Shown piece after piece: positions 1-14,687 of a stretch of 15,030 nt of DNA. The DNA is from a virus. Taxonomy: Duplodnaviria; Heunggongvirae; Uroviricota; Caudoviricetes. The notes below the pieces were generated by a model that did no database searches, was not told the DNA's origin, and was given only the letters and a program-made list of their open reading frames with translations. The first letter of the stretch is position 1; each line of letters starts with the position of its first letter. The position numbers and the translations under genes are program-made. The stretch is taken from positions 1 through 15,030 of the IMG/VR virus record IMGVR_UViG_3300014749_000039. One strand, written 5' to 3'.

Positions 1-1
1 C

Positions 2-952
2 AAAAAATGGCGACAAACCTATTTTTCCACGCCATCCAGCCTGACACACAGTGCTTATCCGTTCTGGTCCGGTGCGCTGTTCAACCGAGGGCGCAACAAA
101 GCCGATAAGGTGGACATCGACCTGTCCCACAGCAATCTGGCCCCCGGCCTGCTGTGCGCAGACGGGCAATACCGCCAGATAGTCACCGTGGAAGATGCGG
201 TGCGCGGCGGCTGTAACCTGTTCGACCTCGACCAGTTGCGCATGGAGTACAGCCCGGACGAATACCAGAACCTGCTGATGTGTGAGTTCGTGGACGATCT
301 CGCGTCTGTGTTCCCACTCAGCGAGCTGCAGGCGTGCATGGTGGACAGTTGGGAAGTCTGGACCGACTTTCATGCACTGGCCCTGCGCCCGTTTGGCTGG
401 CGCGAAGTGTGGATCGGTTATGACCCGGCAAAAGGTACGCAAAACGGCGACAGCGCCGGATGCGTGGTGGTGGCACCGCCAGCCGTGCCGGGTGGTAAGT
501 TCCGCATTCTTGAGCGTCACCAGTGGCGCGGAATGGACTTCCGCGCCCAGGCTGACGCCATCAAAAAACTGACCGAACAGTACAACGTGACCTATATCGG
601 TATCGACTCAACCGGCGTTGGTCACGGGGTTTACGAGAACGTGAAAGCGTTTTTTCCTGCCGTCCGGGAGTTTGTCTACAACCCCAACGTTAAAAACGCC
701 CTGGTACTCAAGGCCTACGACATTATCAGCCACCGCCGTCTGGAGTTTGACGCCGGACACACCGACATAGCGCAGTCCTTTATGGCAATCCGTCGCGCCA
801 CCACCGCCAGTGGCAACCGCCCGACCTATGAAGCCAGCCGCAGCGAAGAAGCCAGCCACGCCGATCTGGCCTGGGCAACGATGCACGCACTGTTTAACGA
901 ACCGCTGCAGGGCGAATCCGCCAATACCAGCAATATTGTGGAGATTTTTTGA
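2..952 (+). CDS. Terminase large (ATPase/nuclease) subunit, P2 gpP-like, C-terminal part; 5' end lies outside the window
   Basis: Reading frame is open from position 2 with no stop before the listed GTG at 110, so the ORF is truncated by the window edge. Translation resembles the C-terminal nuclease region of P2-family terminase large subunits, and the gene sits directly upstream of the portal gene as in the P2 P-Q operon. Confidence 0.7.
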   Translation, partial: KKWRQTYFSTPSSLTHSAYPFWSGALFNRGRNKADKVDIDLSHSNLAPGLLCADGQYRQIVTVEDAVRGGCNLFDLDQLRMEYSPDEYQNLLMCEFVDDLASVFPLSELQACMVDSWEVWTDFHALALRPFGWREVWIGYDPAKGTQNGDSAGCVVVAPPAVPGGKFRILERHQWRGMDFRAQADAIKKLTEQYNVTYIGIDSTGVGHGVYENVKAFFPAVREFVYNPNVKNALVLKAYDIISHRRLEFDAGHTDIAQSFMAIRRATTASGNRPTYEASRSEEASHADLAWATMHALFNEPLQGESANTSNIVEIF

Positions 953-1983
953 TGGGAAAGAGTAAGAAGAACCGCGCTGCGGCGACGAAACAGATCCAGC
1001 TTAAAAGTCAAACTACAGCCGAAGCATTCAGCTTCGGCGATCCCGTTCCTGTTCTGGACCGCCGAGAACTGCTGGATTATGTGGAATGCGTACAGATGGA
1101 CCGCTGGTATGAGCCGCCCGTCAGCTTTGACGGACTGTCGCGCACCTTCCGCGCTGCCGTTCATCATAGTTCCCCGATTGCAGTAAAGTGCAACATTCTG
1201 ACCAGCACCTACATCCCTCACCCGCTGCTCAGCCAGCAGGCTTTTTCGCGTTTTGTGCAGGACTATCTGGTATTTGGTAACGCCTACCTGGAGAAACGCA
1301 CGAACCGCTTCGGTGAAGTTATCGCCCTTGAACCTGCCTTGGCAAAATACACCCGACGCGGGTTAGACCTGGATACCTACTGGTTTGTGCAATACGGTAT
1401 GACCACGCAGCCATATCAGTTCACGAAAGGCAGCATCTTTCATCTGATGGAACCGGACATCAACCAGGAGATCTACGGCCTGCCCAGTTATCTTTCTGCT
1501 ATTCCATCCGCCCTGCTCAACGAGTCTGCCACGCTGTTCCGCCGCAAGTATTACATTAACGGCAGTCATGCAGGCTTCATCATGTATATGACCGACGCCG
1601 CGCAGAACCAGGAAGATGTGAACAACCTCCGCAACGCGATGAAAAGCGCCAAAGGCCCTGGCAACTTCCGCAACCTGTTTATGTACTCGCCTAACGGCAA
1701 AAAGGACGGGCTTCAGATCATCCCGTTGTCAGAAGTCGCAGCGAAAGATGAATTTCTGAACATCAAGAACGTGAGCCGGGACGACATGATGGCTGCACAC
1801 CGCGTACCGCCTCAGATGATGGGAATTTTGCCGAATAATGTTGGGGGGTTTGGTGATGTGGAAAAAGCAAGCAAAGTGTTTGTTAGAAATGAATTAATCC
1901 CATTGCAAAGAAGGATTCAAGAACTTAACGAATGGCTTAACATAGAAGTTATTATCTTTTCTCCATATAATTTATCCAATTGA
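952..1983 (+). CDS. Portal protein, P2 gpQ-like (alternative TTG start at 949)
   Basis: 343/344-aa ORF, the size of P2 portal. ATG at 952 overlaps the terminase stop TGA (950-952) as TGATG; GGAG at 940-943 as SD. The last ~40 codons (from ~1861) are markedly AT-rich compared with the rest of the gene. Confidence 0.7.
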   Translation: MGKSKKNRAAATKQIQLKSQTTAEAFSFGDPVPVLDRRELLDYVECVQMDRWYEPPVSFDGLSRTFRAAVHHSSPIAVKCNILTSTYIPHPLLSQQAFSRFVQDYLVFGNAYLEKRTNRFGEVIALEPALAKYTRRGLDLDTYWFVQYGMTTQPYQFTKGSIFHLMEPDINQEIYGLPSYLSAIPSALLNESATLFRRKYYINGSHAGFIMYMTDAAQNQEDVNNLRNAMKSAKGPGNFRNLFMYSPNGKKDGLQIIPLSEVAAKDEFLNIKNVSRDDMMAAHRVPPQMMGILPNNVGGFGDVEKASKVFVRNELIPLQRRIQELNEWLNIEVIIFSPYNLSN

Positions 1984-1990
1984 ATTTAAT

Positions 1991-2007
1991 GGGTAGTAAA
2001 ACTACCC
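1991..2007 (-). terminator. Short hairpin between convergent portal and DprA-like genes (possible bidirectional terminator)
   Basis: Perfect 7-bp inverted repeat GGGTAGT-aaa-ACTACCC immediately after the DprA-like stop codon (2009-2011); flanks are A/T-rich but there is no clean U-run. Confidence 0.3.
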
Positions 2008-2008
2008 A

Positions 2009-2971
2009 CTAAATCAGAAAGTGACTCATATTAGATCTATAAATATCAGAATTTATCTTAATTTTGCTTATTGACTCAGATATTACATTCATCAGTGAAT
2101 CATAGTCTTGACTAGTGCGCAAGGGATTAGCCAATTCATTATCAACAAGTTGTTGAGTTCCTTCGCAATTAAGTCCCAGTGGATTATCAGCCTTATGCGG
2201 TACAACAGCAAAAATAGGTCTTGCCGCTTTAATAGCAAAATCCGCCTGCGTCATTGTCCCACTATTTTTTGCTGCTTCGATTAGTATCGAAACTGCTGAT
2301 AAACCTACCTGGATTCTGTTGCGTTGCACAAATGACTGCTTGAATGCAGGCCTCCCTACAGGATACTCAGAAATCCAAGCCCCACCGTTAGATAAAATTT
2401 CATTTGCTAATCTAGCATTTTGTTTAGGCTTAGCGCTCTCTAAACCATGAGCTAATACAGCAATTGTTTTAGCACCTGCCTTAAGAGTTGCCTTGTGTGC
2501 ATTTGTATCAGTACCAATAGCTAGGCCGCTTACAATCACCACACCTCTTTCACAGATTTTCTTGGTAATTCTCTTCGTAATTTCTTCCCCTGCCATAGAA
2601 ACTTCACGAGAACCAACAATTGCAACTCCTGGCATCTCACTAAGAATATTTACGTCCCCCTTCAAATATAACATTGCTGGGGGATTTGGCGTAATTGCTA
2701 AACAAATAGGGTATTTAGCATCTCCAAAAGGAATTGGAACAATCCCCAATGATAAATGCTTGCTCAAATAGTCTTCAGCATTATGCAATGACGCTATAGA
2801 AAAGGTTGATTTTAAAATCCCGGCTGAATTAACACACTCAACCAATTCATATTCATCGGAAATAATATGGAATGGAATATCGTTAAATAATTTAAGCAAC
2901 CCTTGTTCTGATGCAAGTCTATCAACCTGTACCGATAGACCTAACAATATTTTGAATTGGGAAGGGTGCAT
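2009..2971 (-). CDS. DprA/Smf-like Rossmann-fold (SLOG-type) protein with ~100-aa N-terminal extension; second gene of the PRTase-DprA pair
   Basis: Translation contains the DprA core signature (VAIVGSREVS...VVIVSGLAIGTDTNAHKATLKAGAKTIAVLAHGLE...WISEYPVG...QRNRIQVGLS...IEAAKNSGTMTQADFAIKAARPIFAVVP). Start chosen at ATG 2969-2971, preceded by AGGAG; the listed ORF start at 2986 lacks an SD. Low GC. Confidence 0.75.
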   Translation of the reverse strand: MHPSQFKILLGLSVQVDRLASEQGLLKLFNDIPFHIISDEYELVECVNSAGILKSTFSIASLHNAEDYLSKHLSLGIVPIPFGDAKYPICLAITPNPPAMLYLKGDVNILSEMPGVAIVGSREVSMAGEEITKRITKKICERGVVIVSGLAIGTDTNAHKATLKAGAKTIAVLAHGLESAKPKQNARLANEILSNGGAWISEYPVGRPAFKQSFVQRNRIQVGLSAVSILIEAAKNSGTMTQADFAIKAARPIFAVVPHKADNPLGLNCEGTQQLVDNELANPLRTSQDYDSLMNVISESISKIKINSDIYRSNMSHFLI

Positions 2972-2975
2972 TATT

Positions 2976-3545
2976 TCACTCCTCATAATTAGCTGTTTCT
3001 AGTAACGCCAGTGGCAATATTGTCTTTGCGCCTGCATATCTTAACAGATAATAGCACGCCGTCATACTCCCCCCAGTTGTAGTAACATCATCAATAAGGA
3101 GAATAACCTTATCAGCCACATTGGATGTAACTCCGATTGTTGACATATGATGTTCGACAGAACGATCTCCGCCCCCCTTATGAGCACTCACTACTGTTGT
3201 TTTTCTCTGTAATGATTGGTTATATACAGCATTAGGAAATTTTTTCGCAATATCTTGCGCTATTTTTATTAAAGCTTGAGATACTTTTCCCTCAGCATGA
3301 GAAGGAACAATTGTTATCTCAAAGGGCACGTCGGTAAAAGCAACCCTACCAATCACATAGCTTTGGAGGCTAGAAGTTAAAAGTTGGGTAAAAATATTAA
3401 CAGCCTTTGCATACCCGGAATTTGAAGCGTCCTTCAAATCCATCATTGCCTTTGAAAGTCTATCCCCGGAACGAGGATTTCGCTCTCCTCGATATCGCCA
3501 AGGATGATATGTACCGCAAGAGTAAATTTTGATTGGCCCCATCAT
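2976..3545 (-). CDS. Phosphoribosyltransferase-domain protein (ComF/ComFC-like PRTase); first gene of the pair
   Basis: Classic PRPP-binding loop VILLIDDVTTTGGSM near the C-terminus. Stop TGA at 2976-2978 lies 4 nt upstream of the DprA-like start, so the two genes form a tight operon. Low GC. Confidence 0.75.
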   Translation of the reverse strand: MMGPIKIYSCGTYHPWRYRGERNPRSGDRLSKAMMDLKDASNSGYAKAVNIFTQLLTSSLQSYVIGRVAFTDVPFEITIVPSHAEGKVSQALIKIAQDIAKKFPNAVYNQSLQRKTTVVSAHKGGGDRSVEHHMSTIGVTSNVADKVILLIDDVTTTGGSMTACYYLLRYAGAKTILPLALLETANYEE

Positions 3546-3672
3546 TTTTCTGCGCCTTAAGAGTAGATATATCCATATTAAATGGATACTTACATCATTT
3601 ACAACCCAAAAAATGACACCAAGTTATCACTAATGACTTAGGTTCAAATGCCAAACTAACTCTCTGCGCGCG

Positions 3673-3691
3673 CTCGTATCCCCGCCACGCC
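3673..3691 (-). other. cos-like cohesive-end site of the P2/186 type
   Basis: Minus strand reads GGCGTGGCGGGGATACGAG; the first 13 nt match the start of the P2/186 19-nt cohesive end as I remember it (GGCG[A/T]GGCGGGGA...). It sits in a GC-rich patch between the portal-side cargo and the tum-like/A side, where cos lies in P2/186. Confidence 0.45.
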
Positions 3692-3736
3692 TGCCCGCTT
3701 TATGTAGTGGTTTTCATGCAGGTGCATGATCTACGC

Positions 3737-3764
3737 AAAAGCCCGCCAGTTCTGGCGGGCTTTA
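3737..3764. terminator. Stem-loop with short T/A runs on either side (possible bidirectional terminator near cos)
   Basis: AAAA-GCCCGCCA-gttc-TGGCGGGC-TTT: 8-bp GC-rich stem with 4-nt loop, flanked by AAAA upstream and TTT downstream. Confidence 0.35.
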
Positions 3765-4033
3765 GCAAAAACGATCCTCAAACGATCATGCAATCTCATG
3801 CAGCATAGACATGCACAGACGAGTAAAGCGAATCGGACTTTACGCAAGGTGAACTCCTCAGCGGGCATAATCAGTATGTCGGAAGATCTCTAAAAATGAA
3901 TAATTCGGTTAACAGGTATGCTTACAAAAGCATATATTTGATTAAAAATCATGTAAGGGGGAGGATCTCAAACTGAATCGCCACGGGTTTTACAAATTTC
4001 GATAGTCTCTCTAACGTTTCGGCTGAGGTCAAA

Positions 4034-4459
4034 ATGAAAAGCTTTTACGTATTAATTTTAATTCTGGTTGCAAGCTTTGTTAGCGTCCCAGTTCAGGCGG
4101 TAACAGCTAAAAACTATGAGAAAGGAACTAAAGCTCAACAGAAATCAATATCTTACCTTTCATGTGCATTCTATGGCAGTAGCACACAATTAGATCCTAG
4201 CTACACGGAGCAAGTACCTACAGCCGATATCAAGATATTACAGAAAGCAGCTTACCACGCTTACAACGATGCGCTCTCATACTTTGGTTATGAGGAACCA
4301 GATCACGAACAACGCATAATTGATTATGCTGAATTTGTGGCGTCGCAAGAAGCTGTGTTATGGGATAAACCAGGAATGAATGGAAAGCAGGTAACACTAA
4401 TTGCTCGTTCTCTCTACAATGAGAGTAACTGTAACTTGTTACTGGACTCAATTAAGTAG
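4034..4459 (+). CDS. Small secreted/periplasmic protein of unknown function (cargo gene next to cos)
   Basis: N-terminus MKSFYVLILILVASFVSVPVQA has a charged n-region, hydrophobic core and a VQA-V signal-peptidase-I-like site; no lipobox. SD GAGGT 5 nt upstream of the ATG. AT-rich relative to the phage core. Confidence 0.6.
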   Translation: MKSFYVLILILVASFVSVPVQAVTAKNYEKGTKAQQKSISYLSCAFYGSSTQLDPSYTEQVPTADIKILQKAAYHAYNDALSYFGYEEPDHEQRIIDYAEFVASQEAVLWDKPGMNGKQVTLIARSLYNESNCNLLLDSIK

Positions 4460-4618
4460 GAAAAAGATGGTATTTTGCCCGTAGTTTCAACCTTAATCTC
4501 CGAACCTGTCGCAGAACGGGCGTTCACTCATCAAATAAACGCCACACCTAACGCCTCACTGTACTCGTTGTTCAACCTTGCTGACGCCAGAAGCAATTTC
4601 AGACGCCAGCAACGTTTC

Positions 4619-4852
4619 TTAATGCAGCCAGCTGTCGTCTTCCCACACCTTCTGCATAATTTTCATCACTTGTTTTCTTTCTTCGTCCAGTTGCAGTCCG
4701 GTCAGTTCCACACCGTTAGAGCTACCTTTACGGATACGGATTACCGTTTTGGGATACAGGGGGCGCAGATTGCGGTAAAGCTCGGATTCAAGGGCGTCCA
4801 GGGTAGACTGGCTAATCTTCTGCTCTTTATCGATCATTATTTCAATGCGCAT
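4619..4852 (-). CDS. DinI-family protein
   Basis: Translation from internal ATG (4850-4852) begins MRIEIMIDKEQ... and aligns along its length with E. coli DinI (MRIEV..., ...WE..D.W at the C-terminus). GAGGTGA SD sits 8 nt upstream. The listed 101-aa ORF is an N-terminally over-extended version. Confidence 0.75.
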   Translation of the reverse strand: MRIEIMIDKEQKISQSTLDALESELYRNLRPLYPKTVIRIRKGSSNGVELTGLQLDEERKQVMKIMQKVWEDDSWLH

Positions 4853-4862
4853 AAAAGTCACC

Positions 4863-5051
4863 TCAGCTGATGACATCCATTGAGCGGTTGTATTCGTGGG
4901 TTCTGATTTTTGCCATGAGTTCATCAGTCAATTCAGAAACCCACTGCAGAGCCAGCCCCTTCTCTTCATCACTACACTCACTAGCCGCTACAAGCCTAAG
5001 AAAAAAATCAATGCGCTGGAGCTTCAAAGACTCCAAAAAATAGTCCTGCAT
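4863..5051 (-). CDS. 62-aa protein, first gene of the LexA-box operon; possible Tum-type antirepressor (function inferred from position only)
   Basis: Internal ATG at 5049-5051 is preceded by a strong SD AGGAGGAAAG; the listed 96-aa ORF start has none. Lies 10 nt upstream of the DinI-like gene and directly downstream of a LexA box. Confidence 0.55.
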   Translation of the reverse strand: MQDYFLESLKLQRIDFFLRLVAASECSDEEKGLALQWVSELTDELMAKIRTHEYNRSMDVIS

Positions 5052-5092
5052 CTTTCCTCCTATGACACCACACGCAACACTGTATGTATAAC

Positions 5093-5112
5093 CACTGTTT
5101 ATATTTACAGTA
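5093..5112. promoter_or_regulatory. LexA (SOS) box upstream of the 62-aa/DinI-like operon
   Basis: CACTGTTTATATTTACAGTA has the CTGT-N8-ACAG pattern with an AT-rich spacer, a near-consensus match, and overlaps AT-rich promoter-like sequence about 40 nt upstream of the operon start. Confidence 0.7.
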
Positions 5113-5204
5113 TATAATAATCTTACTGATGTAAAACGTTTTTTTACGTTCATCAGCCTGATATGCCTGGTATTATTAAGAGCACGAATTGTTAACCCGC
5201 GTAA

Positions 5205-7619
5205 TTAATACAGGTTCCGCCACTGATCATCTTCCTGCAAACGCTGGTTCCGATAGAAGATACGCAGGCCTGCTCCTGACGGAATACTGCCTCCGCGAAG
5301 GAGTAAATCGACCTCTTTCTCGCTGCCATCAAATCCTCTGGACTTCAGCTCATACACGAGCTGCAGTCGCTGATGGTCTGTAATTCGCTGTTTGTAGTCT
5401 TTACGCCGTTTCGGTTTCACCAGGCGTAACCTTGCTGCCAGTTCCCGGCGCTCTTTTTTGCTCATACTGTGCAGGTAATCGTGCAACTCCTTGTCATCCA
5501 TGCGGGTAATGTCCGTCCTGGTATCCCCATCAGCTGATTTATCTTTCCCTTGTTGGTTCAAATTTTCAGCAAGGGGACAGTTATTGCCACGAGTCCAAGG
5601 GGCGCAAGCGCCCTGGTCGGCTGCCGCCTCCTGAACGTCAACGGCTTTACGAACCATTTTCCACTTCACTGCATGAGTGCAGATCTTGCCCTCTGCAATG
5701 GGTGACCAGATGCCATAAATACGAATACCGTGATCGCCATAGGCGGTCGGCTCTTCGTTGATTTCATAAGCGGTTCTGATGAGGTGATATTTACGGGGAA
5801 CCAGTACGCCGCCCTGCTTCATGATGTAGGTGGCAAAGCAACCAGCATCAGCTGCAGCCAGAATGGCATCAAGGCGCGGGTTATCCAGTACCGGCGCACC
5901 TGCTTTTTTGTCACCCTGTTGCCTTGCCGCCTGACCAGCCAGCAATCGCAGTTCACGGTAAGCCTGACGCCCCGGAATGCCAAAGAAGCGGAATTGCTGA
6001 ACACGATGCAGAGACGCCCAGGCATTAACGTATTCAGCGTTATCACGCAGAGATTTACCCGTTTCCTTGCTGATCTCGCCAGCCAGACCACGCCCGTCAA
6101 TGTTCTTACTGATATATTTCGCGATGTAGCTTGTCGGCGTTCCTTTGCGCGGGTTAATCAACTCAGACTTAAAGCGCGGCCCAGTGTTATTGCCCAGCTC
6201 CTCGCGGTCTTCACGGATGGCAAACTTACGCAGTAATGCAGTGATGGCGCGGCGGTCTTTTTTGCGCATAAAACACAACAGGTGCCAGTGAACTGTACCG
6301 TCATGATGCGGCTCAGCCACCCGCACGCCATACCAGCGCAATCCGGCTTTGTGCATCGCCTTACGAAATGCAGCAAACATGCCGACCAGATAGTCGCTGC
6401 TTTGTCTTACCGTCGAGTTTGTCCAGGTCGGGTTGGGTCTGCCGTTATTGAGCGTGGAATGGAAACGCGACGGACAGGTGATAGTGTAGAAAACGGCGCA
6501 GTCACCGCGCATTTCCGCGATAAGCTCCAGACCTTTAACACAGGCCATCATCTCATTGCGGCGATGCGCCGGGTTGCTGCTGCTGGCGTTTACCACATCT
6601 TCCATATCCAGCGTGTCGCCGTCTTCGTTCACCAGTTCATGAGAACGGAAAAACTCCAGCGACTTACGGCGCTGCTCACGTTTATGCATCACGGCTTCAT
6701 AGCTGACATAGGGGGATGCTTTTTTGCTGACCAGGCAGACAGCACGCAACTGCTCTTCCCGCCATTCGCAACGCATCTTCCATAATTTCCGATACCACCA
6801 GTCGGCACACAACATACGCGCCAGCGAACCCGGAATGAGTTCATAGGGCACGGGTTTACGGCGGTTTCTTTTCCGACGGAGTTGCTCAAACGCAGGCGGA
6901 ATAACATCCAGACGCAGGGTTTCCGCTGCCACCTTTTCCCATGTTTTGCGGATTTCTTCTGGCTTAACGTCATCGGTGGCATACAAATCACCACAAGCGG
7001 CATCAAGGCACATGCTCATATGCGCAGCGACAAGGGTAGACAGGCGTTTCACCTGATCCTGACTCATTTCAGGCAGGATAAGCAGGCCATCCAGCCCTTC
7101 ATGGCTTGCCATAAAGCGAAAAGAAGTGGATAGCTGACAGTCGCGGACATGCTCCAGTCGTTCCAGACATGGCTTAATCGTCTCACGCAAATAGCGGGAA
7201 TAAGCCTTTGGCCTGCCCAGGCTGCTGAAATATTCAATACGTTGCATCAGCGGCTTGCTGATATGGGAAGGCTGGGCGTTGACGTCAGCCAGAATGACCA
7301 TGTCCGGATTAAAACGCTGCTGCTCATGCGCCAGCTTTGCCCGGCTAATGAGCTTATCCTGCTCCATTTCGCGCTGGACAGGATCACGGGATTCATTAAA
7401 GAAATAACGCTCCCAGACCTGATCACTCAGTGCCTCGCGGCGCAGTTGTTCCTGCTCGTTATCGGCAGCGTACAGAGTGATCAGGTTTGAAAGTGCAGAA
7501 ACCGGCGCAACTTCCGCCGGGTCCAGATAAGGGTTAATGGCCTTTTTTGGGCTGTTCCATGAGAATGCTGCGGCGACCTCGTTAAAGCCGCTGCAGTTGT
7601 TCATATCAGCATGGCTCAT
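5205..7619 (-). CDS. Rolling-circle replication initiation endonuclease, P2/186 gpA-like
   Basis: ~800-aa protein with an HUH-type motif ([10 protein letters not shown]) and a twin-tyrosine motif ([10 protein letters not shown]) typical of superfamily I rolling-circle initiators. Start chosen at ATG 7617-7619, which overlaps the Dam stop as ATGA; the listed ORF begins at an upstream TTG (7646). Confidence 0.8.
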
Positions 7620-8473
7620 GCACGCACTCCGTACACGGCGGAACAATCCACGCCACGCGAAGGATCAAATCCTATCCAGCAGCGCGGCCCGGCAACAGCA
7701 ATGATTTCTGTTGCAGATTTACTCTCACCAGGTGCCACGCCGATGCTGCGTTTTGCCTTGATGTAGTGGTGAGTAAAATTGCGATACAGCGAACGGATCA
7801 GGGATGTGTCACTGTTAGAAATAATGACCGGATATCCTTCTGATGACCGATGTTCAAGAACGGATGCCAGGTGATACTGGTCATCTTCAGTGAAACCATC
7901 AGTGTGATAGCCGGAAAACGTACCGTCATAAGGCGGATCGCAATACACCACATCCCCCGCGTGCAACATCGCCAGCGTTTCATCGAAGCTGGCGCAGATA
8001 AACGTTGCCCGCTGGGCTTTTACTGCAAATGCACGAATTTCTTTTTCAGGAAAATACGGATTTTTATAATTACCGTAGGGAATGTTGAAATGCCCGCTCT
8101 TGTTATAGCGACATAAACCACGGTAACCGTGACGATTGAGATACAGGAAATATATCGCTTTCATGAAATCAGTAATTTCAGTTGAGTAATTAAACTCCTG
8201 CCTTATGTTGTAATAATCCATCTCCCTGTTTGCGTTCTCAAATAAAACTCTGGCGCGAGATATAAACGATTCACAATCAGCGGCAACCTTTTTATAGAGG
8301 TTGATTAAATCAGGATTAATATCCGCAACCAGATAGCTGGGATAATCCGTCTCCATCATCACAGCACAGGAACCCGCGAAAGGTTCAACCAGTCGCGGGC
8401 CAGCAGGAAGATGTTTTTTCAGTTCGGACATTATGGCAGTTTTATTTCCCGCCCATTTCAGGATGGTGCTCAT
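7616..8473 (-). CDS. dam: DNA adenine methyltransferase, Dam-like (D12 class N6-adenine MTase)
   Basis: Translation from ATG 8471-8473 begins [11 protein letters not shown]...[11 protein letters not shown] and contains the DPPY catalytic motif, with overall resemblance to E. coli Dam. SD GGAGGTG upstream; a C-terminal tail overlaps the start of gene A. Confidence 0.8.
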
Positions 8474-8930: not shown

Positions 8931-9187
8931 AATCAATTCTCCTGAATTTAGATAAAGGGATGCCCGGCGGGTTTACGCCATTAATTTCATTAGTTGGTTA
9001 ATTCGGCATGGTTAGCCGTCTGGGGAATAAGCTCACCACTGCACGAAAATGATTCATTGCTTTAATCAACTCCCGCTTTTCGTCAGTGGTCAGCTCATTA
9101 ATGCTGATGCTATGACGTTCAGCTGGAATTTTTGCCATAAAGAATATGGCTGCCCGGGCTTCGTTTTTTTGTTTGTTATTGATTGGA

Positions 9188-9406
9188 TCATGGATTTTTT
9201 GCAATAAAGAATTGGGCAGCCAGTGCCCGTTTATTTTGTTCGCTATTAATATCGCGTGGATCACGCATATCTTTAATAAACCGTTCAAGCTCTGACTCAA
9301 TATTCAGACCAAAAACTTTCGCCCTTAACTCCGCAATGTGATTAAGTCCATTCAGGCGTTCACCGGGGCCTAATGGAACAGTCGCCGCAGCGCCATTAAT
9401 TGCCAT
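9188..9406 (-). CDS. Hypothetical early protein (72 aa); ends inside a tandem imperfect duplication
   Basis: ATG start at 9404-9406. Its C-terminal segment DPRDINSEQNKRALAAQFFIAKNP is repeated in diverged form in the +1 frame immediately downstream (ORF 8998..9300). Confidence 0.4.
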   Translation of the reverse strand: MAINGAAATVPLGPGERLNGLNHIAELRAKVFGLNIESELERFIKDMRDPRDINSEQNKRALAAQFFIAKNP

Positions 9407-12758: not shown

Positions 12759-14492
12759 CTACTCAAGAAGATATTCTAACTCATCTTTTATCGGGATAAC
12801 TTGCTCATAAAGTCGGTGATATGACTTCCCAATTGCGCCTCTGAATTGTATTAACTTTGGTGGCTTGTTACCTATATTAATAATATGGTCTTGAGCTATA
12901 CCTGGGTAGGGATCAATAAATACAATTTCAGATATACCTAACTGATAAGCTTTTTTCGCACACAGCTCACAGGGACTGGCAGTTGTATATAACCTCCCCC
13001 CCTGAACGCCAATGCCACCATATTTTGCAAGTTGTAAAAATGCGTTTTCCTCAGCATGTAATGCACGTGTATGAACTTGATTACCTTTTTTATCTTTATC
13101 AAGATCATTATGTATATCTTTAAAACAATAAGATAAGTTCCTGCCTCTATAAATATCACCAGTTTTATCTATCGCCCTAAAATTTAATAGTTTCTCATTA
13201 GCTTTAATTCTGAAAGAACTATTATTTCTCTCATAATGACTGTACACTTTTTCATCAAAGTCGTTCATTAGGCCATCTAGCGATCTCATAGAGCAAGGAA
13301 TCTGACCGTTGGCGACATCATTCCAACCCACTGATTTTATTGAGTTTTCACCATCAGTTACTACAGCTCCCACCTGTCTAGATATACAACCAGAGTTTAA
13401 TTTTACCGTATACGCAACTTGCATAACCCTTTCCATTGCAGTAGGTGTTATCAGACCAGGATGCTTCATCAGTGCGATGTACCACGCTAATTGTGCTTTT
13501 AAAATATTGTCATTATCAAATTCATTTTTTGGGTTAAAAATGTGTATATCTGATAGTTCAATGCATTTAGTTACATTTGGATTAGTGAGATGTTTGTAAG
13601 AGTTATCACCTTTACCTGACTCTACAGAATCTATTTCCTCTATCTGCTTTTCAGAAAACTTATGTAGTTTCCGCAAATAGTTTGTTCGATGTTCATCTGG
13701 GGCATTTATTGACATTAAATGAAATGCAGAATATCTATCCTTAAAAAATTTTGCTTCATATGGATTTCTAATAGCATCTATGACAATTAATGCGTTATCT
13801 CTTTTGCTTTTTCTTATTAATTTAATAACCCTATTAATAGTTTCCGGCAAATGAAAAACAGATTTAGGTATAAACTCTTTATCTTCAAAATCGACTTCAA
13901 TACGCCCACGGCGTCTAATTGACTTACCTGCTAACTGATAGACTGAAACATATAAATTTGAGTTTATCGCATTTAGTTCAGCTTTGAATTCCTTAGTAAA
14001 TTTTCTAACTAACCTCAAAATTGATATAAATTTATTAATCGTTTTTTCATTAAGCTTCAATTCACTATTATGATCAAGCAAATTCTCAATTACATTTTTA
14101 AATCTTGTTAAAATGAGATTATCTGAAAATACACCAAAAGTTAATACATTATCTAAATGCTCTTTACTGATAGATTTATTAGATGATAGAATAAACTCAG
14201 AAGCTTCTTCAACTGTTAACATCAAAAGATACGCTGAGATTAGGTCACTCACCTTAATTGAGTAAAAATTTTCCCAGTGATTTTCTGCGAATTTTTTAAC
14301 TATATTATAACGATGGACATCCAATCCCTTGTAAAAACCCTGTAATTTACTTACATCAGGGAAGACTGTTTTTTCGTTTTCAAGAATATTAGCTGTTGTT
14401 GTGCAACCAGAACCAGTTCGACCTGTCAAACCGACTAAAATAAACTGCCCATTTTCAAGGAAAAGCTCACTAACGAATTTTTTTTCTTTCAT
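12759..14492 (-). CDS. P-loop kinase-like + deoxycytidylate/cytidine deaminase fusion protein (AvcD / defensive dCTP-deaminase-like)
   Basis: N-terminal nucleotide-binding loop LVGLTGRTGSGCTTT and C-terminal zinc-deaminase motifs HAEENAFLQ...PCELCAKKAYQLGISEIVF (H[AC]E...PCxxC). Very AT-rich gene in an AT-rich islet between int and the ssrA fragment. First codon is GTG (14493-14495) or ATG at 14490-14492. Confidence 0.75.
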   Translation of the reverse strand: MKEKKFVSELFLENGQFILVGLTGRTGSGCTTTANILENEKTVFPDVSKLQGFYKGLDVHRYNIVKKFAENHWENFYSIKVSDLISAYLLMLTVEEASEFILSSNKSISKEHLDNVLTFGVFSDNLILTRFKNVIENLLDHNSELKLNEKTINKFISILRLVRKFTKEFKAELNAINSNLYVSVYQLAGKSIRRRGRIEVDFEDKEFIPKSVFHLPETINRVIKLIRKSKRDNALIVIDAIRNPYEAKFFKDRYSAFHLMSINAPDEHRTNYLRKLHKFSEKQIEEIDSVESGKGDNSYKHLTNPNVTKCIELSDIHIFNPKNEFDNDNILKAQLAWYIALMKHPGLITPTAMERVMQVAYTVKLNSGCISRQVGAVVTDGENSIKSVGWNDVANGQIPCSMRSLDGLMNDFDEKVYSHYERNNSSFRIKANEKLLNFRAIDKTGDIYRGRNLSYCFKDIHNDLDKDKKGNQVHTRALHAEENAFLQLAKYGGIGVQGGRLYTTASPCELCAKKAYQLGISEIVFIDPYPGIAQDHIINIGNKPPKLIQFRGAIGKSYHRLYEQVIPIKDELEYLLE

Positions 14493-14687
14493 CACGTCCC
14501 ACTTATGAATGTAAGAATATTCAACATATTAATTATAATTTATTAACTCATTTTGTTCTAGATACTTGATGTAATGGCGGCACTTTGGCGACGGAGCATT
14601 AAAAACGCGTAAGACGAGCAAATACAACAAAACACTAACACATTGTTTTTAAATATAAATAGCTGTTTTTACTATACTAAAAATGGT

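What the first reader, a model, noticed from the sequence alone, without database searches (positions are those of the whole stretch)
1840..1983. Cargo junction lies inside the portal gene: the portal's last ~40 codons are encoded by AT-rich DNA
Seen: the portal ORF is GC-balanced up to ~1860, then switches abruptly to AT-rich sequence that continues into the DprA/PRTase cassette. This suggests the cassette was exchanged by recombination within the 3' end of the conserved flanking gene, bringing its own version of the portal C-terminus. It marks the exact left boundary of the hotspot and implies portal C-terminal sequence variation tracks cargo type.
Basis: seen in the sequence. Interest (0 to 1): 0.4.

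Follow-up and report, generated by a model that had tools for sequence, protein, structure and literature searches.

The report
Defence cargo swaps carry the portal gene's tail
In this P2/186-like E. coli prophage, the swappable anti-phage gene cassette next to the packaging site takes the last 43 codons of the essential portal gene with it, so the true edge of the known defence hotspot lies inside that gene.

Summary

**GC drop.** Portal-gene GC falls from 0.53 (952-1853) to 0.30 (1854-1983). GC3 falls from 0.65 to 0.26, matching the adjacent cargo at 0.29-0.32.

**Breakpoints.**
- A prophage with the same cargo on a different backbone differs by 5.6% up to 1836, then is almost identical from 1837 to about 5636.
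- Two prophages with the same backbone but other cargo are identical up to 1853 and diverge from 1854.
- The crossover interval is therefore 1837-1853, in the codons for N-V-G-G-F-G.

**Linkage in E. coli.** In 5,426 complete genomes, this tail allele occurs in exactly the 14 records that carry this DprA/PRTase (Shosta-like) cassette. Two other tail+cargo alleles gave only full-length matches, in all 25 and all 18 matching records.

**Close relatives.** Among 84 close relatives, 54 tail classes map almost one-to-one onto 53 cargo classes (ARI 0.96). Portal body versus cargo gives ARI 0.37.

**Empty sites.** Phages with no cargo between portal and cos, including P2 and 186, mostly have GC-normal tails (one of seven empty species loci is lower, at 0.44).

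**Assessment.** The hotspot and the cassette are already published. The intragenic boundary and the cargo-linked portal C-termini appear undescribed in the papers I could search. Why the tail is AT-rich is unresolved. Interest is moderate.

The parts
1..952 (+). 3' part of the terminase large-subunit (gpP-like) gene. Backbone DNA, GC about 0.59.
   Evidence: Annotation of the 99.9%-identical KK19-02 prophage. Composition.
952..1853 (+). Portal gene (gpQ/W homologue), backbone-linked part, codons 1-301. GC 0.53, GC3 0.65.
   Evidence: Pfam Phage_portal, 3.8e-18. 99.8-100% identical to the BEN5202 and ACN001 prophages, which carry other cargo.
1837..1853 (+). Crossover interval AATGTTGGGGGGTTTGG, coding N-V-G-G-F-G. 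This is the left edge of the exchangeable module.
   Evidence: The last mismatch to the same-cargo loci GDAR2-2 and L108 is at 1836. The first mismatch to the same-backbone loci ACN001 and BEN5202 is at 1854. In 9 tail classes found on divergent backbones, the last backbone mismatch falls at 1803-1842.
1854..1983 (+). Cargo-linked portal tail: the last 43 codons plus the stop. GC 0.30, GC3 0.26. In frame and homologous to other portal tails.
   Evidence: composition. (14/14 linkage). (homology; VFVRNEL.PLQ motif kept).
1990..2006 (.). Short hairpin GGGTAG-TAAAA-CTACCC between the convergent portal and DprA stop codons. Part of the module. A terminator role is only inferred.
   Evidence: Read directly from the sequence. 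Not called by the terminator scan because there is no T-run.
2009..2986 (-). DprA-like gene (ShosA-like) of the defence cassette. PGAP starts it at 2971.
   Evidence: PADLOC ShosA 9.3e-70. Pfam DNA_processg_A 9e-60. Annotation.
2976..3545 (-). Phosphoribosyltransferase gene (ShosT-like). It overlaps the DprA start and lies upstream in the same operon.
   Evidence: PADLOC ShosT 2.7e-18. Pfam Pribosyltran.
3546..3660 (.). Cargo-specific upstream region, presumably holding the cassette promoter. This is the right end of slot A.
   Evidence: 100% identical in same-cargo loci and unalignable in other-cargo loci. The promoter role is an inference.
3661..3816 (.). Conserved cos island. The 19-nt cohesive-end sequence, placed by homology to P2 and 186, is 3673-3691.
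   Evidence: Identical to the annotated cos of phage Cartapus. Alignment with other-cargo prophages resumes at 3661-3667. P2 and 186 cos ends.
3817..4547 (.). Second variable slot (slot B, the side where P2 carries tin/old). It holds a 141-aa hypothetical gene at 4034-4459 (+).
   Evidence: This segment is missing from BEN5202 and ACN001, where only about 7 nt lie between the flanks. No Pfam or PADLOC hit.

Best explanation
The window is a 186/P2-like (Peduoviridae) prophage. Its known cos-proximal defence hotspot, between portal gene gpQ and replication gene gpA, holds a Shosta-like DprA+PRTase cassette between the portal stop codon and cos.

The unit that is exchanged between phages by homologous recombination does not end at the portal stop codon. 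It starts inside the portal gene, right after the codons for the conserved N-V-G-G-F-G motif (1837-1853). It therefore includes the last 43 portal codons (1854-1983), the cassette and its upstream region, up to cos.

**Shown.** Each cargo type has its own diverged but still functional-looking portal C-terminus, about 68% nt and 70% aa identical between classes. The rest of the portal gene is shuffled freely among backbones.

**Inferred mechanism.**
- The tails of different cargo classes are too diverged (25-40%) for homologous recombination.
- Crossovers that swap cargo can therefore only resolve in the last well-conserved stretch upstream.
- Repeated recombination in the roughly 93%-identical portal body has trimmed the hitch-hiking flank down to that limit.
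- On the other side, cos or the homology beyond it supplies the second exchange point.

**Unresolved.** The tail's cargo-like AT-richness reflects long co-inheritance with the cargo. I cannot say whether it arose in place, as a non-recombining segment drifting to AT, or was imported from AT-rich donor phages.
For: **Breakpoints.**
- Window versus GDAR2-2 (same cargo): 102 mismatches in 1-1836, then 8 in 1837-5636.
- L108 gives the same left break, with its last mismatch at 1836.
- Window versus BEN5202 and ACN001: 99.8-100% identity up to 1853, 60-80% across the tail, and unalignable after the stop until cos at 3661-3667.

**Linkage.**
- E. coli genomes: the tail allele occurs in exactly the 14 cassette-bearing records, and two other tail+cargo alleles gave only full-length matches (25 of 25 and 18 of 18 records).
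- IMG/VR 4/4 and metagenomes 1/1.

**Generality.**
- 84 close relatives give 54 tail classes and 53 cargo classes. ARI is 0.964 for tail-cargo and 0.37 for body-cargo.
- 11 of 16 multi-member tail classes sit on more than one body class.
- Mean GC is 0.529 for the body, 0.366 for the tail and 0.368 for the cargo.
- Left junctions of 9 tail classes on divergent backbones fall at 1803-1842.

**Across species.** In 64 loci, portal GC3 is uncorrelated with downstream GC for codons 1-290. For codons 321-343, Spearman rho is 0.72 with P = 2e-11.

**Empty sites.** Portal-to-cos distances are 132-233 nt in the seven empty species loci and 186-195 nt in P2 and 186. Tail GC is 0.50-0.60, similar to the body, in eight of these nine; L053 is lower at 0.44.

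**Diverged DprA cassettes.**
- E2348/69: body 94%, tail 67%, cargo 70% identical to the window.
- IMG/VR set: cargo 78% with tail 72-79%.
- SopEPhi-like set: cargo 66-68% with tail 55-64%.
Against: - The recombination mechanism (RecA or phage-encoded, role of cos ends) is inferred, not shown.
- In the one event that can be reconstructed for this window, the right-hand junction is not at cos. It lies at least 2 kb beyond it.
- Some occupied loci keep a GC-normal tail (L007, L034, L039, L015). The junction is therefore not always intragenic.
- One cargo class carries two tail classes that are 92% identical.
- A pairwise correlation test within the small DprA family did not separate tail-cargo from tail-body association. 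Rho was 0.54 versus 0.68, with non-independent samples and one frameshifted locus.
- The identical stretch at the junction is only 17 nt, shorter than the roughly 25 nt usually quoted for efficient RecA recombination (my own knowledge). Resolution at the edge of heterology after initiation further left has to be assumed.
Confidence: 0.85

Rival explanations
1. The portal C-terminus is simply a weakly constrained, fast-evolving region. Its divergence and AT-richness have nothing to do with the cargo.
For: Amino-acid identity across 62 species-level loci falls from about 0.95 at codons 303-306 to 0.4-0.55 at codons 327-343. The extreme C-terminus is therefore less constrained.
Against: - The step is abrupt between otherwise 99.8%-identical genes.
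- Identical tails occur on backbones that are 7% diverged.
- Tail and cargo classes map one-to-one.
- Tails at empty sites are conserved and GC-normal. L009, L022 and L028 come from three genera and share one tail protein sequence.
- Synonymous composition equals that of the cargo.
Confidence: 0.04
2. Tail and cargo co-vary only because both mark clonal phage lineages. This would be whole-genome linkage with no special junction.
For: Body and cargo classes are partly associated (ARI 0.37). In the small DprA family, tail identity also correlates with body identity.
Against: - The window's portal body is 99.8% identical to BEN5202 and 99.5% to ACN001, which carry other cargo and tails only 64-67% identical.
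- The same body is only 93% identical to GDAR2-2, which carries the same cargo and a 100%-identical tail.
- 11 of 16 multi-member tail classes occur on several body classes.
Confidence: 0.03
3. Origin variant A. The AT-rich tails were imported together with the cargo from P2-like phages of AT-rich hosts, whose whole portal genes are AT-rich. Crossovers at the conserved motif trimmed away everything else.
For: - In this allele GC3 drops in a step and stays flat, at 0.27, 0.27, 0.27 and 0.18 over four 11-codon bins.
- Among 54 tail classes, tail GC correlates with cargo GC (rho 0.40, P = 0.002).
Against: - No AT-rich-bodied donor was found. Every DprA-cassette locus recovered has a portal body of GC 0.50-0.56.
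- The closest tails at protein level in 50,697 phage records come from Escherichia, Klebsiella, Yersinia and Salmonella phages, at 77.5% identity or less.
- AT-rich tails keep the enterobacterial consensus.
- Sampling of low-GC Enterobacterales was poor, so absence of donors is weak evidence.
Confidence: 0.3
4. The portal C-terminal allele is functionally matched to its cargo, or is itself the target of diversifying selection. For example, it might avoid recognition of the phage's own portal by the defence system it carries, or by portal-sensing systems of competitors. The linkage would then be selected rather than passive.
For: There is one portal tail per cargo class and more than 50 alleles. 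Some defence systems, such as Avs4, are known to sense portal proteins (my own knowledge, not tested here).
Against: - Linkage is seen for every cargo type examined, whatever its predicted mechanism.
- Synonymous sites are saturated and AT-shifted just like the cargo, which selection on the protein does not explain.
- The conserved half of the tail (VFVRNEL.PLQ) is under purifying selection.
Confidence: 0.06

Closest known systems
cos-proximal gpA-gpQ defence hotspot of P2-like phages (Rousset et al. 2022, PMC9122126; also PMC13586616 and the iLund4u preprint 10.1101/2024.10.15.618418)
   Same: - Same locus: between the replication gene and the portal gene, adjacent to cos.
- Highly variable cargo.
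- A DprA+PRTase system from this hotspot was validated against T7 and lambda.
- Exchange by a cos-end event plus a homologous crossover was proposed as speculation.
   Different: Those papers treat the portal as an intact conserved flank and delimit the hotspot at gene level. Text searches for portal, flank, breakpoint and GC content found no mention of a junction inside gpQ or of cargo-linked portal C-termini. Here the boundary is mapped to 17 nt inside gpQ. The locus is also resolved into two slots on either side of cos.
Hitch-hiking of core-gene segments next to loci under diversifying selection, for example gnd beside the O-antigen rfb cluster in enteric bacteria (my own knowledge, not checked in the paper library)
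   Same: A conserved housekeeping or essential gene next to a hypervariable, horizontally exchanged, AT-rich cluster carries allele-specific diverged sequence. That sequence is co-transferred with the cluster.
   Different: Here the hitch-hiking tract is only about 130 nt with a knife-edge boundary at a conserved motif. It lies in a phage structural gene, and its synonymous composition has converged on that of the cargo.
Mosaic-module junctions of tailed phages, as described for the lambdoid phages HK97 and HK022 by the Hendrix school (my own knowledge)
   Same: Sharp transitions between near-identical and highly diverged sequence. They arise from recombination and are occasionally placed inside genes.
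   Different: Classical mosaic junctions are mostly at gene boundaries and are attributed to illegitimate recombination followed by selection. Here the junction is reused by many independent cargo classes and sits at a short conserved coding motif, which fits homologous exchange.
Shosta (ShosTA) / DprA-PRTase / PsyrTA toxin-antitoxin-like defence systems
   Same: The two cargo genes match the PADLOC models ShosA (9e-70) and ShosT (3e-18), and more weakly PsyrA and PsyrT. The two genes overlap in a single operon.
   Different: This concerns the cargo, not the finding itself. No function was tested for this allele. It is 62-70% identical in protein to the E2348/69 and SopEPhi versions.

Membership tests
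P2-like gpA-gpQ cos-proximal defence hotspot | Located between the portal gene (gpQ) and the replication gene (gpA) of a P2/186-like phage | tested here: met
   Portal at 952-1983, replication endonuclease at 5205-7646 (-). The full P2/186-like gene set is present in the near-identical KK19-02 prophage.
P2-like gpA-gpQ cos-proximal defence hotspot | [quoted passage not shown] | tested here: met
   Window 3661-3720 is identical to the annotated cos of phage Cartapus and homologous to the P2 and 186 cohesive ends.
P2-like gpA-gpQ cos-proximal defence hotspot | Gene content varies among otherwise closely related phages | tested here: met
   53 cargo classes in 84 loci with portal identity of 93% aa or more. 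DUF262, DUF4145, a hypothetical gene and DprA variants all occur at the same place.
P2-like gpA-gpQ cos-proximal defence hotspot | Cargo confers anti-phage defence | not testable with these tools
   Homology only: PADLOC ShosA/ShosT. A DprA-PRTase system from this hotspot was validated by Rousset et al..
Recombination-module junction with hitch-hiking flank | The same segment is nearly identical on diverged backbones, with an abrupt change in identity | tested here: met
   5.6% divergence left of 1836 against 0.2% in 1837-5636, versus GDAR2-2. The same break appears in L108 and in 9 tail classes.
Recombination-module junction with hitch-hiking flank | The same backbone carries different segments, with the break at the same place | tested here: met
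   BEN5202 and ACN001 are identical to the window up to 1853 and diverge from 1854. Across 24 such pairs the first mismatch falls at 1812-1869.
Recombination-module junction with hitch-hiking flank | Exchange occurs by homologous recombination, dependent on RecA or a phage recombinase | not testable with these tools
   Inferred from the junction lying in conserved sequence. No Chi site is present in the window.
Phage portal protein (Pfam PF04860), gpQ/W type | Match to the family model above its curated threshold, with the tail lying inside the domain | tested here: met
   66.2 bits against a cut-off of 39.1. The match covers residues 95-329, so it extends into the tail, which starts at residue 302.
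Shosta / DprA-PRTase system | DprA-like and PRTase genes adjacent in one operon | tested here: met
   ShosA 9.3e-70 and ShosT 2.7e-18. The genes overlap at 2976-2986 on the minus strand.

The most novel reading that the evidence does not exclude
The AT-rich tail is not foreign. It would be a native portal segment that decayed to cargo-like composition in place (GC3 from 0.65 to 0.26) because, once linked to a cargo class, it could no longer recombine with the general pool of portal genes.

The same gene, transcript and protein then provide a natural control. Expression level and codon-usage selection are the same for body and tail, and only the recombination regime differs. That would argue that the high GC3 of phage core genes is maintained by recombination, for example through biased gene conversion. 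It would also argue that the AT-richness of accessory or defence DNA is partly a consequence of recombinational isolation rather than of foreign origin.
Probability: 0.25. Interest if true: 0.65.

Novelty: new member of a known kind. Interest (0 to 1): 0.42.

Why it matters
- **Hotspot definition.** The result sharpens the definition of a widely mined defence hotspot. Its left edge is about 130 nt inside gpQ, so the portal C-terminus is part of the accessory module.
- **Practical uses.**
  - The 130-nt tail is a near-perfect barcode for cargo type, usable on short contigs or amplicons.
  - Hotspot-mining pipelines that anchor on whole portal genes will misplace the boundary.
  - Portal-based phylogenies of Peduoviridae should exclude the last 45 or so codons.
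- **Mechanism.** It gives a concrete, testable picture of how cargo is swapped: a crossover confined to the last conserved motif, with cos on the other side.
- **Protein tolerance.** An essential structural protein tolerates more than 50 natural C-terminal variants.
- **Open question.** The composition contrast within one gene may bear on why accessory DNA is AT-rich.

Tried and rejected
- **P2 cos search.** The P2 cos 19-mer, allowing up to 3 mismatches, found nothing. cos was then located through the annotated cos of Cartapus.
- **megablast end-points.** In one search these (query 1029-1070, window 1928-1969) at first suggested that the AT-rich tail was shared with other-cargo phages. Base-by-base comparison showed the alignments were simply running on at 60-75% identity.
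- **Species-level pairwise analysis.** 64 loci gave only 15 shared-cargo pairs, too few to test linkage. It was replaced by E. coli-wide searches and 80 close IMG/VR relatives.
- **Correlation and partial correlation within the DprA family.** Not discriminating: samples were non-independent, L094 has a frameshifted portal and L092 a split PRTase.
- **Structure.** An AlphaFold2 single-sequence model of the portal had pLDDT 30.7 and was unusable. There was no sequence hit in the PDB. The structural position of the tail therefore remains unassigned, and no fold search was run.
- **Chi site.** None in the window.
- **Terminator and promoter scan of 1800-4100.** At or below chance, and it did not call the 1990-2006 hairpin.
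- **AT-rich donor lineage.** None was found, either among DprA-cassette loci or by tblastn of the tail peptide against phages.
- **Literature.** Nilsson et al. 2004 (MBE), the most likely earlier description of this region, is not in the library. A second keyword search returned only irrelevant papers.
Full report
**What the window is.** The window is 99.8% identical over most of its length to a prophage of E. coli KK19-02. That prophage carries a complete P2/186-type gene set. On the + strand the order is:

| Coordinates | Strand | Feature |
|---|---|---|
| to 952 | + | terminase large subunit |
| 952-1983 | + | portal |
| 2009-2986 | - | DprA-like gene |
| 2976-3545 | - | phosphoribosyltransferase |
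| 3661-3816 | . | cos island |
| 4034-4459 | + | 141-aa hypothetical gene |
| about 4619-4852 | - | DinI-like gene and a small ORF |
| 5205-7646 | - | replication endonuclease (gpA-like) |
| further right | | early genes, CI, integrase |

- cos was placed by its identity to the annotated cos of phage Cartapus and by homology to the cohesive ends of P2 and 186.
- The two cargo genes match the PADLOC models ShosA (9e-70) and ShosT (3e-18).
- A DprA+PRTase system from this very hotspot was validated against T7 and lambda by Rousset et al. 2022.

**Checking the observation.**
- GC is 0.531 over portal positions 952-1853 and 0.300 over 1854-1983 (Fisher P = 8e-7).
- No 130-nt window in 1-1853 falls below 0.469.
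- A maximum-likelihood changepoint lies after 1823, with support 1803-1873 and LLR 54.
- Third-codon-position GC is 0.653 in the body and 0.256 in the tail. That matches DprA (0.286) and PRTase (0.317).

**Locating the junction by comparison.**
- *Same backbone, other cargo.* BEN5202 (hypothetical cargo) and ACN001 (DUF262 cargo) share the window's backbone. They are identical to the window up to 1853, apart from one ACN001 mismatch at 1812, and differ from 1854 onward. Identity is 60-80% through the rest of the portal gene, still in frame. After the stop the sequences cannot be aligned until cos at 3661-3667.
- *Same cargo, other backbone.* GDAR2-2 carries the same DprA/PRTase cassette. It shows 102 mismatches in 1-1836, the last at 1836, and then only 8 in 1837-5636. 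Metagenome contig L108 shows the same left break, with its last mismatch at 1836 and none in 1837-1983.
- *Result.* The two comparisons bracket the crossover to 1837-1853, AATGTTGGGGGGTTTGG, which codes N-V-G-G-F-G.

**Does the tail travel with the cargo?**
- About 1,261 records in 5,426 complete E. coli genomes carry a related portal.
- The 133-nt tail allele is at least 99% identical in exactly 14 of them. The next-best listed tail matches were only 74-80% identical and partial.
- The same 14 records hold the cassette at 99.7% or more.
- Queries made of tail plus about 900 nt of cargo gave only full-length matches for the BEN5202 allele (all 25 matching records) and the ACN001 allele (all 18). 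No record matched the tail part alone or the cargo part alone.
- An exact 33-mer of the window's tail occurs in 4 IMG/VR contigs, the same 4 that hold the cassette at 99% or more. It also occurs in one metagenome contig that is colinear with the window.

**Generality among close relatives.** 84 close relatives have portals at least 93% identical in protein (plus the E. coli loci).

| Measure | Value |
|---|---|
| Tail classes (95% nt or more) | 54 |
| Cargo classes | 53 |
| ARI, tail versus cargo | 0.964 |
| ARI, portal body versus cargo | 0.37 |
| Between-class identity, tail | median 68% nt, 70% aa |
| Between-class identity, body | median 93% nt |
| Mean GC: body / tail / first kb of cargo | 0.529 / 0.366 / 0.368 |
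| Multi-member tail classes on more than one body class | 11 of 16 |

- The single tail-cargo mismatch is a pair of tails 92% identical, just under the clustering threshold.
- In the 9 tail classes found on clearly diverged backbones, the last backbone mismatch before the shared tail lies at 1803-1842 in window coordinates.
- In 24 pairs with identical upstream sequence but different tails, the first mismatch lies at 1812-1869.

**Generality across species.**
- In 64 species-level loci from GTDB, portal GC3 is uncorrelated with downstream GC for codons 1-290. For codons 321-343 it correlates strongly (rho 0.72, P = 2e-11).
- Seven loci with nothing between portal and cos (132-233 nt) were found; six have tail GC of 0.50-0.60, similar to the body, and one (L053) has 0.44. 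P2 and 186, with 186-195 nt between the portal stop and the cos end, have tail GC of 0.51 and 0.53.
- Three of these loci, from different genera, share an identical tail protein sequence.
- A few occupied loci keep a GC-normal tail (L007, L034, L039, L015). In those the cargo presumably joins after the stop codon.

**The tail is portal, not cargo.** Every tail is in frame and retains the VFVRNEL.PLQ.R..ELN.W pattern. AT-rich alleles show more K, N, I and F. Amino-acid conservation declines towards the extreme C-terminus, and third positions are saturated from about codon 291.

**Diverged DprA cassettes have similarly diverged tails.** All identities below are relative to the window.

| Locus or set | Body | Tail | Cargo |
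|---|---|---|---|
| E2348/69 | 94% | 67% | 70% |
| Four IMG/VR loci | 82-86% | 72-79% | 78% |
| SopEPhi-like loci | 77-84% | 55-64% | 66-68% |

The linkage is therefore old. A formal correlation test on this small, non-independent set was not discriminating.

**Mechanism.**
- *Shown.* The exchangeable module begins inside the portal gene. It has moved between backbones repeatedly, and its left junctions cluster within about 50 nt of the GGFGD codons.
- *Inferred.*
  - Exchange is by homologous recombination between co-resident P2-like phages.
  - Because tails of different classes differ by 25-40%, crossovers can only resolve upstream of 1854.
  - Frequent recombination in the roughly 93%-identical body trims any hitch-hiking flank to that limit.
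  - cos, or the homology beyond it, supplies the other exchange point, as Rousset et al. speculated.
- *Limit of the cos idea.* In the one event reconstructable here, the donor block extends from 1837 past cos to at least 5636 versus GDAR2-2, and to at least 6000 versus L108. That particular exchange was not bounded by cos.
- No Chi site is present in the window.

**Origin of the AT-richness is unresolved.**
- No AT-rich-bodied donor was found. All DprA-cassette loci have portal bodies of GC 0.50-0.56.
- The closest tails in 50,697 phage records are enterobacterial, at 77.5% aa identity or less.
- This mildly favours divergence within the enterobacterial P2-like pool.
- Translational selection cannot explain the contrast, because body and tail belong to one gene. 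A difference in recombination regime could, but that is speculation.

**Comparison with the literature.**
- The hotspot, its adjacency to cos and the DprA-PRTase system are all published.
- The three relevant papers treat the portal as a conserved flank. Text searches found no mention of an intragenic junction, breakpoints or cargo-linked portal C-termini.
- Nilsson et al. 2004 could not be read, so an earlier description cannot be excluded.
- Conceptually this is hitch-hiking of a core-gene flank with a locus under diversifying selection, and a phage mosaic junction. Both are known kinds.

**Verdict.** This is a useful refinement of a known hotspot rather than a new kind of system. The open question is the composition of the tail.

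Noticed in passing
window 3817-4547 (ORF 4034-4459, +): There is a second variable slot on the far side of cos. It is a 731-nt insert with a 141-aa hypothetical protein that has a hydrophobic, signal-peptide-like N-terminus. It has no Pfam or PADLOC hit. It is present in the DprA-type loci, while BEN5202 and ACN001 have only about 7 nt here.
   Followed up: partly
window 12759-14495 (-): The gene just outside the integrase end of the prophage is annotated 'anti-phage dCTP deaminase' in the near-identical KK19-02 record. A defence gene therefore abuts the prophage attachment side.
   Followed up: no
window about 9180-9191: The window and KK19-02 differ by a length change in what looks like a short tandem repeat. 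The two megablast segments overlap by 57 nt in KK19-02 and leave a 10-nt gap in the window.
   Followed up: no
L096 (IMGVR_UViG_3300048923_000150), reverse-complement coordinates 4001-7850: A distant P2-like contig has a portal 66% identical in protein to the window's. It carries a DprA/PRTase cassette (71% and 62% aa) with terminase, portal, PRTase and DprA all on one strand. The cassette therefore sits in the opposite orientation relative to the portal compared with the window.
   Followed up: no
L043 (Pantoea stewartii), portal 3' end: The portal ORF reads on for about 30 extra residues past the usual C-terminus (...GYVWDGSALIWMARWRCIHQRAGR). No cos match was found downstream. This may be a fusion or a rearranged locus.
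   Followed up: no
L009, L022, L028 (Enterobacter, Citrobacter, Pantoea), portal tails: Three empty-site prophages from different genera share an identical, GC-normal portal C-terminus (...EEVIRFEPYTLGLTEDKRND). This contrasts with the 54 diverged tails found at occupied sites.
   Followed up: partly
E. coli 33-6 and 58-3 (NZ_CP050031.1, NZ_CP050036.1), BEN5202-type cargo: An IS1 transposase interrupts the hypothetical cargo gene next to the portal in two broiler isolates.
   Followed up: no
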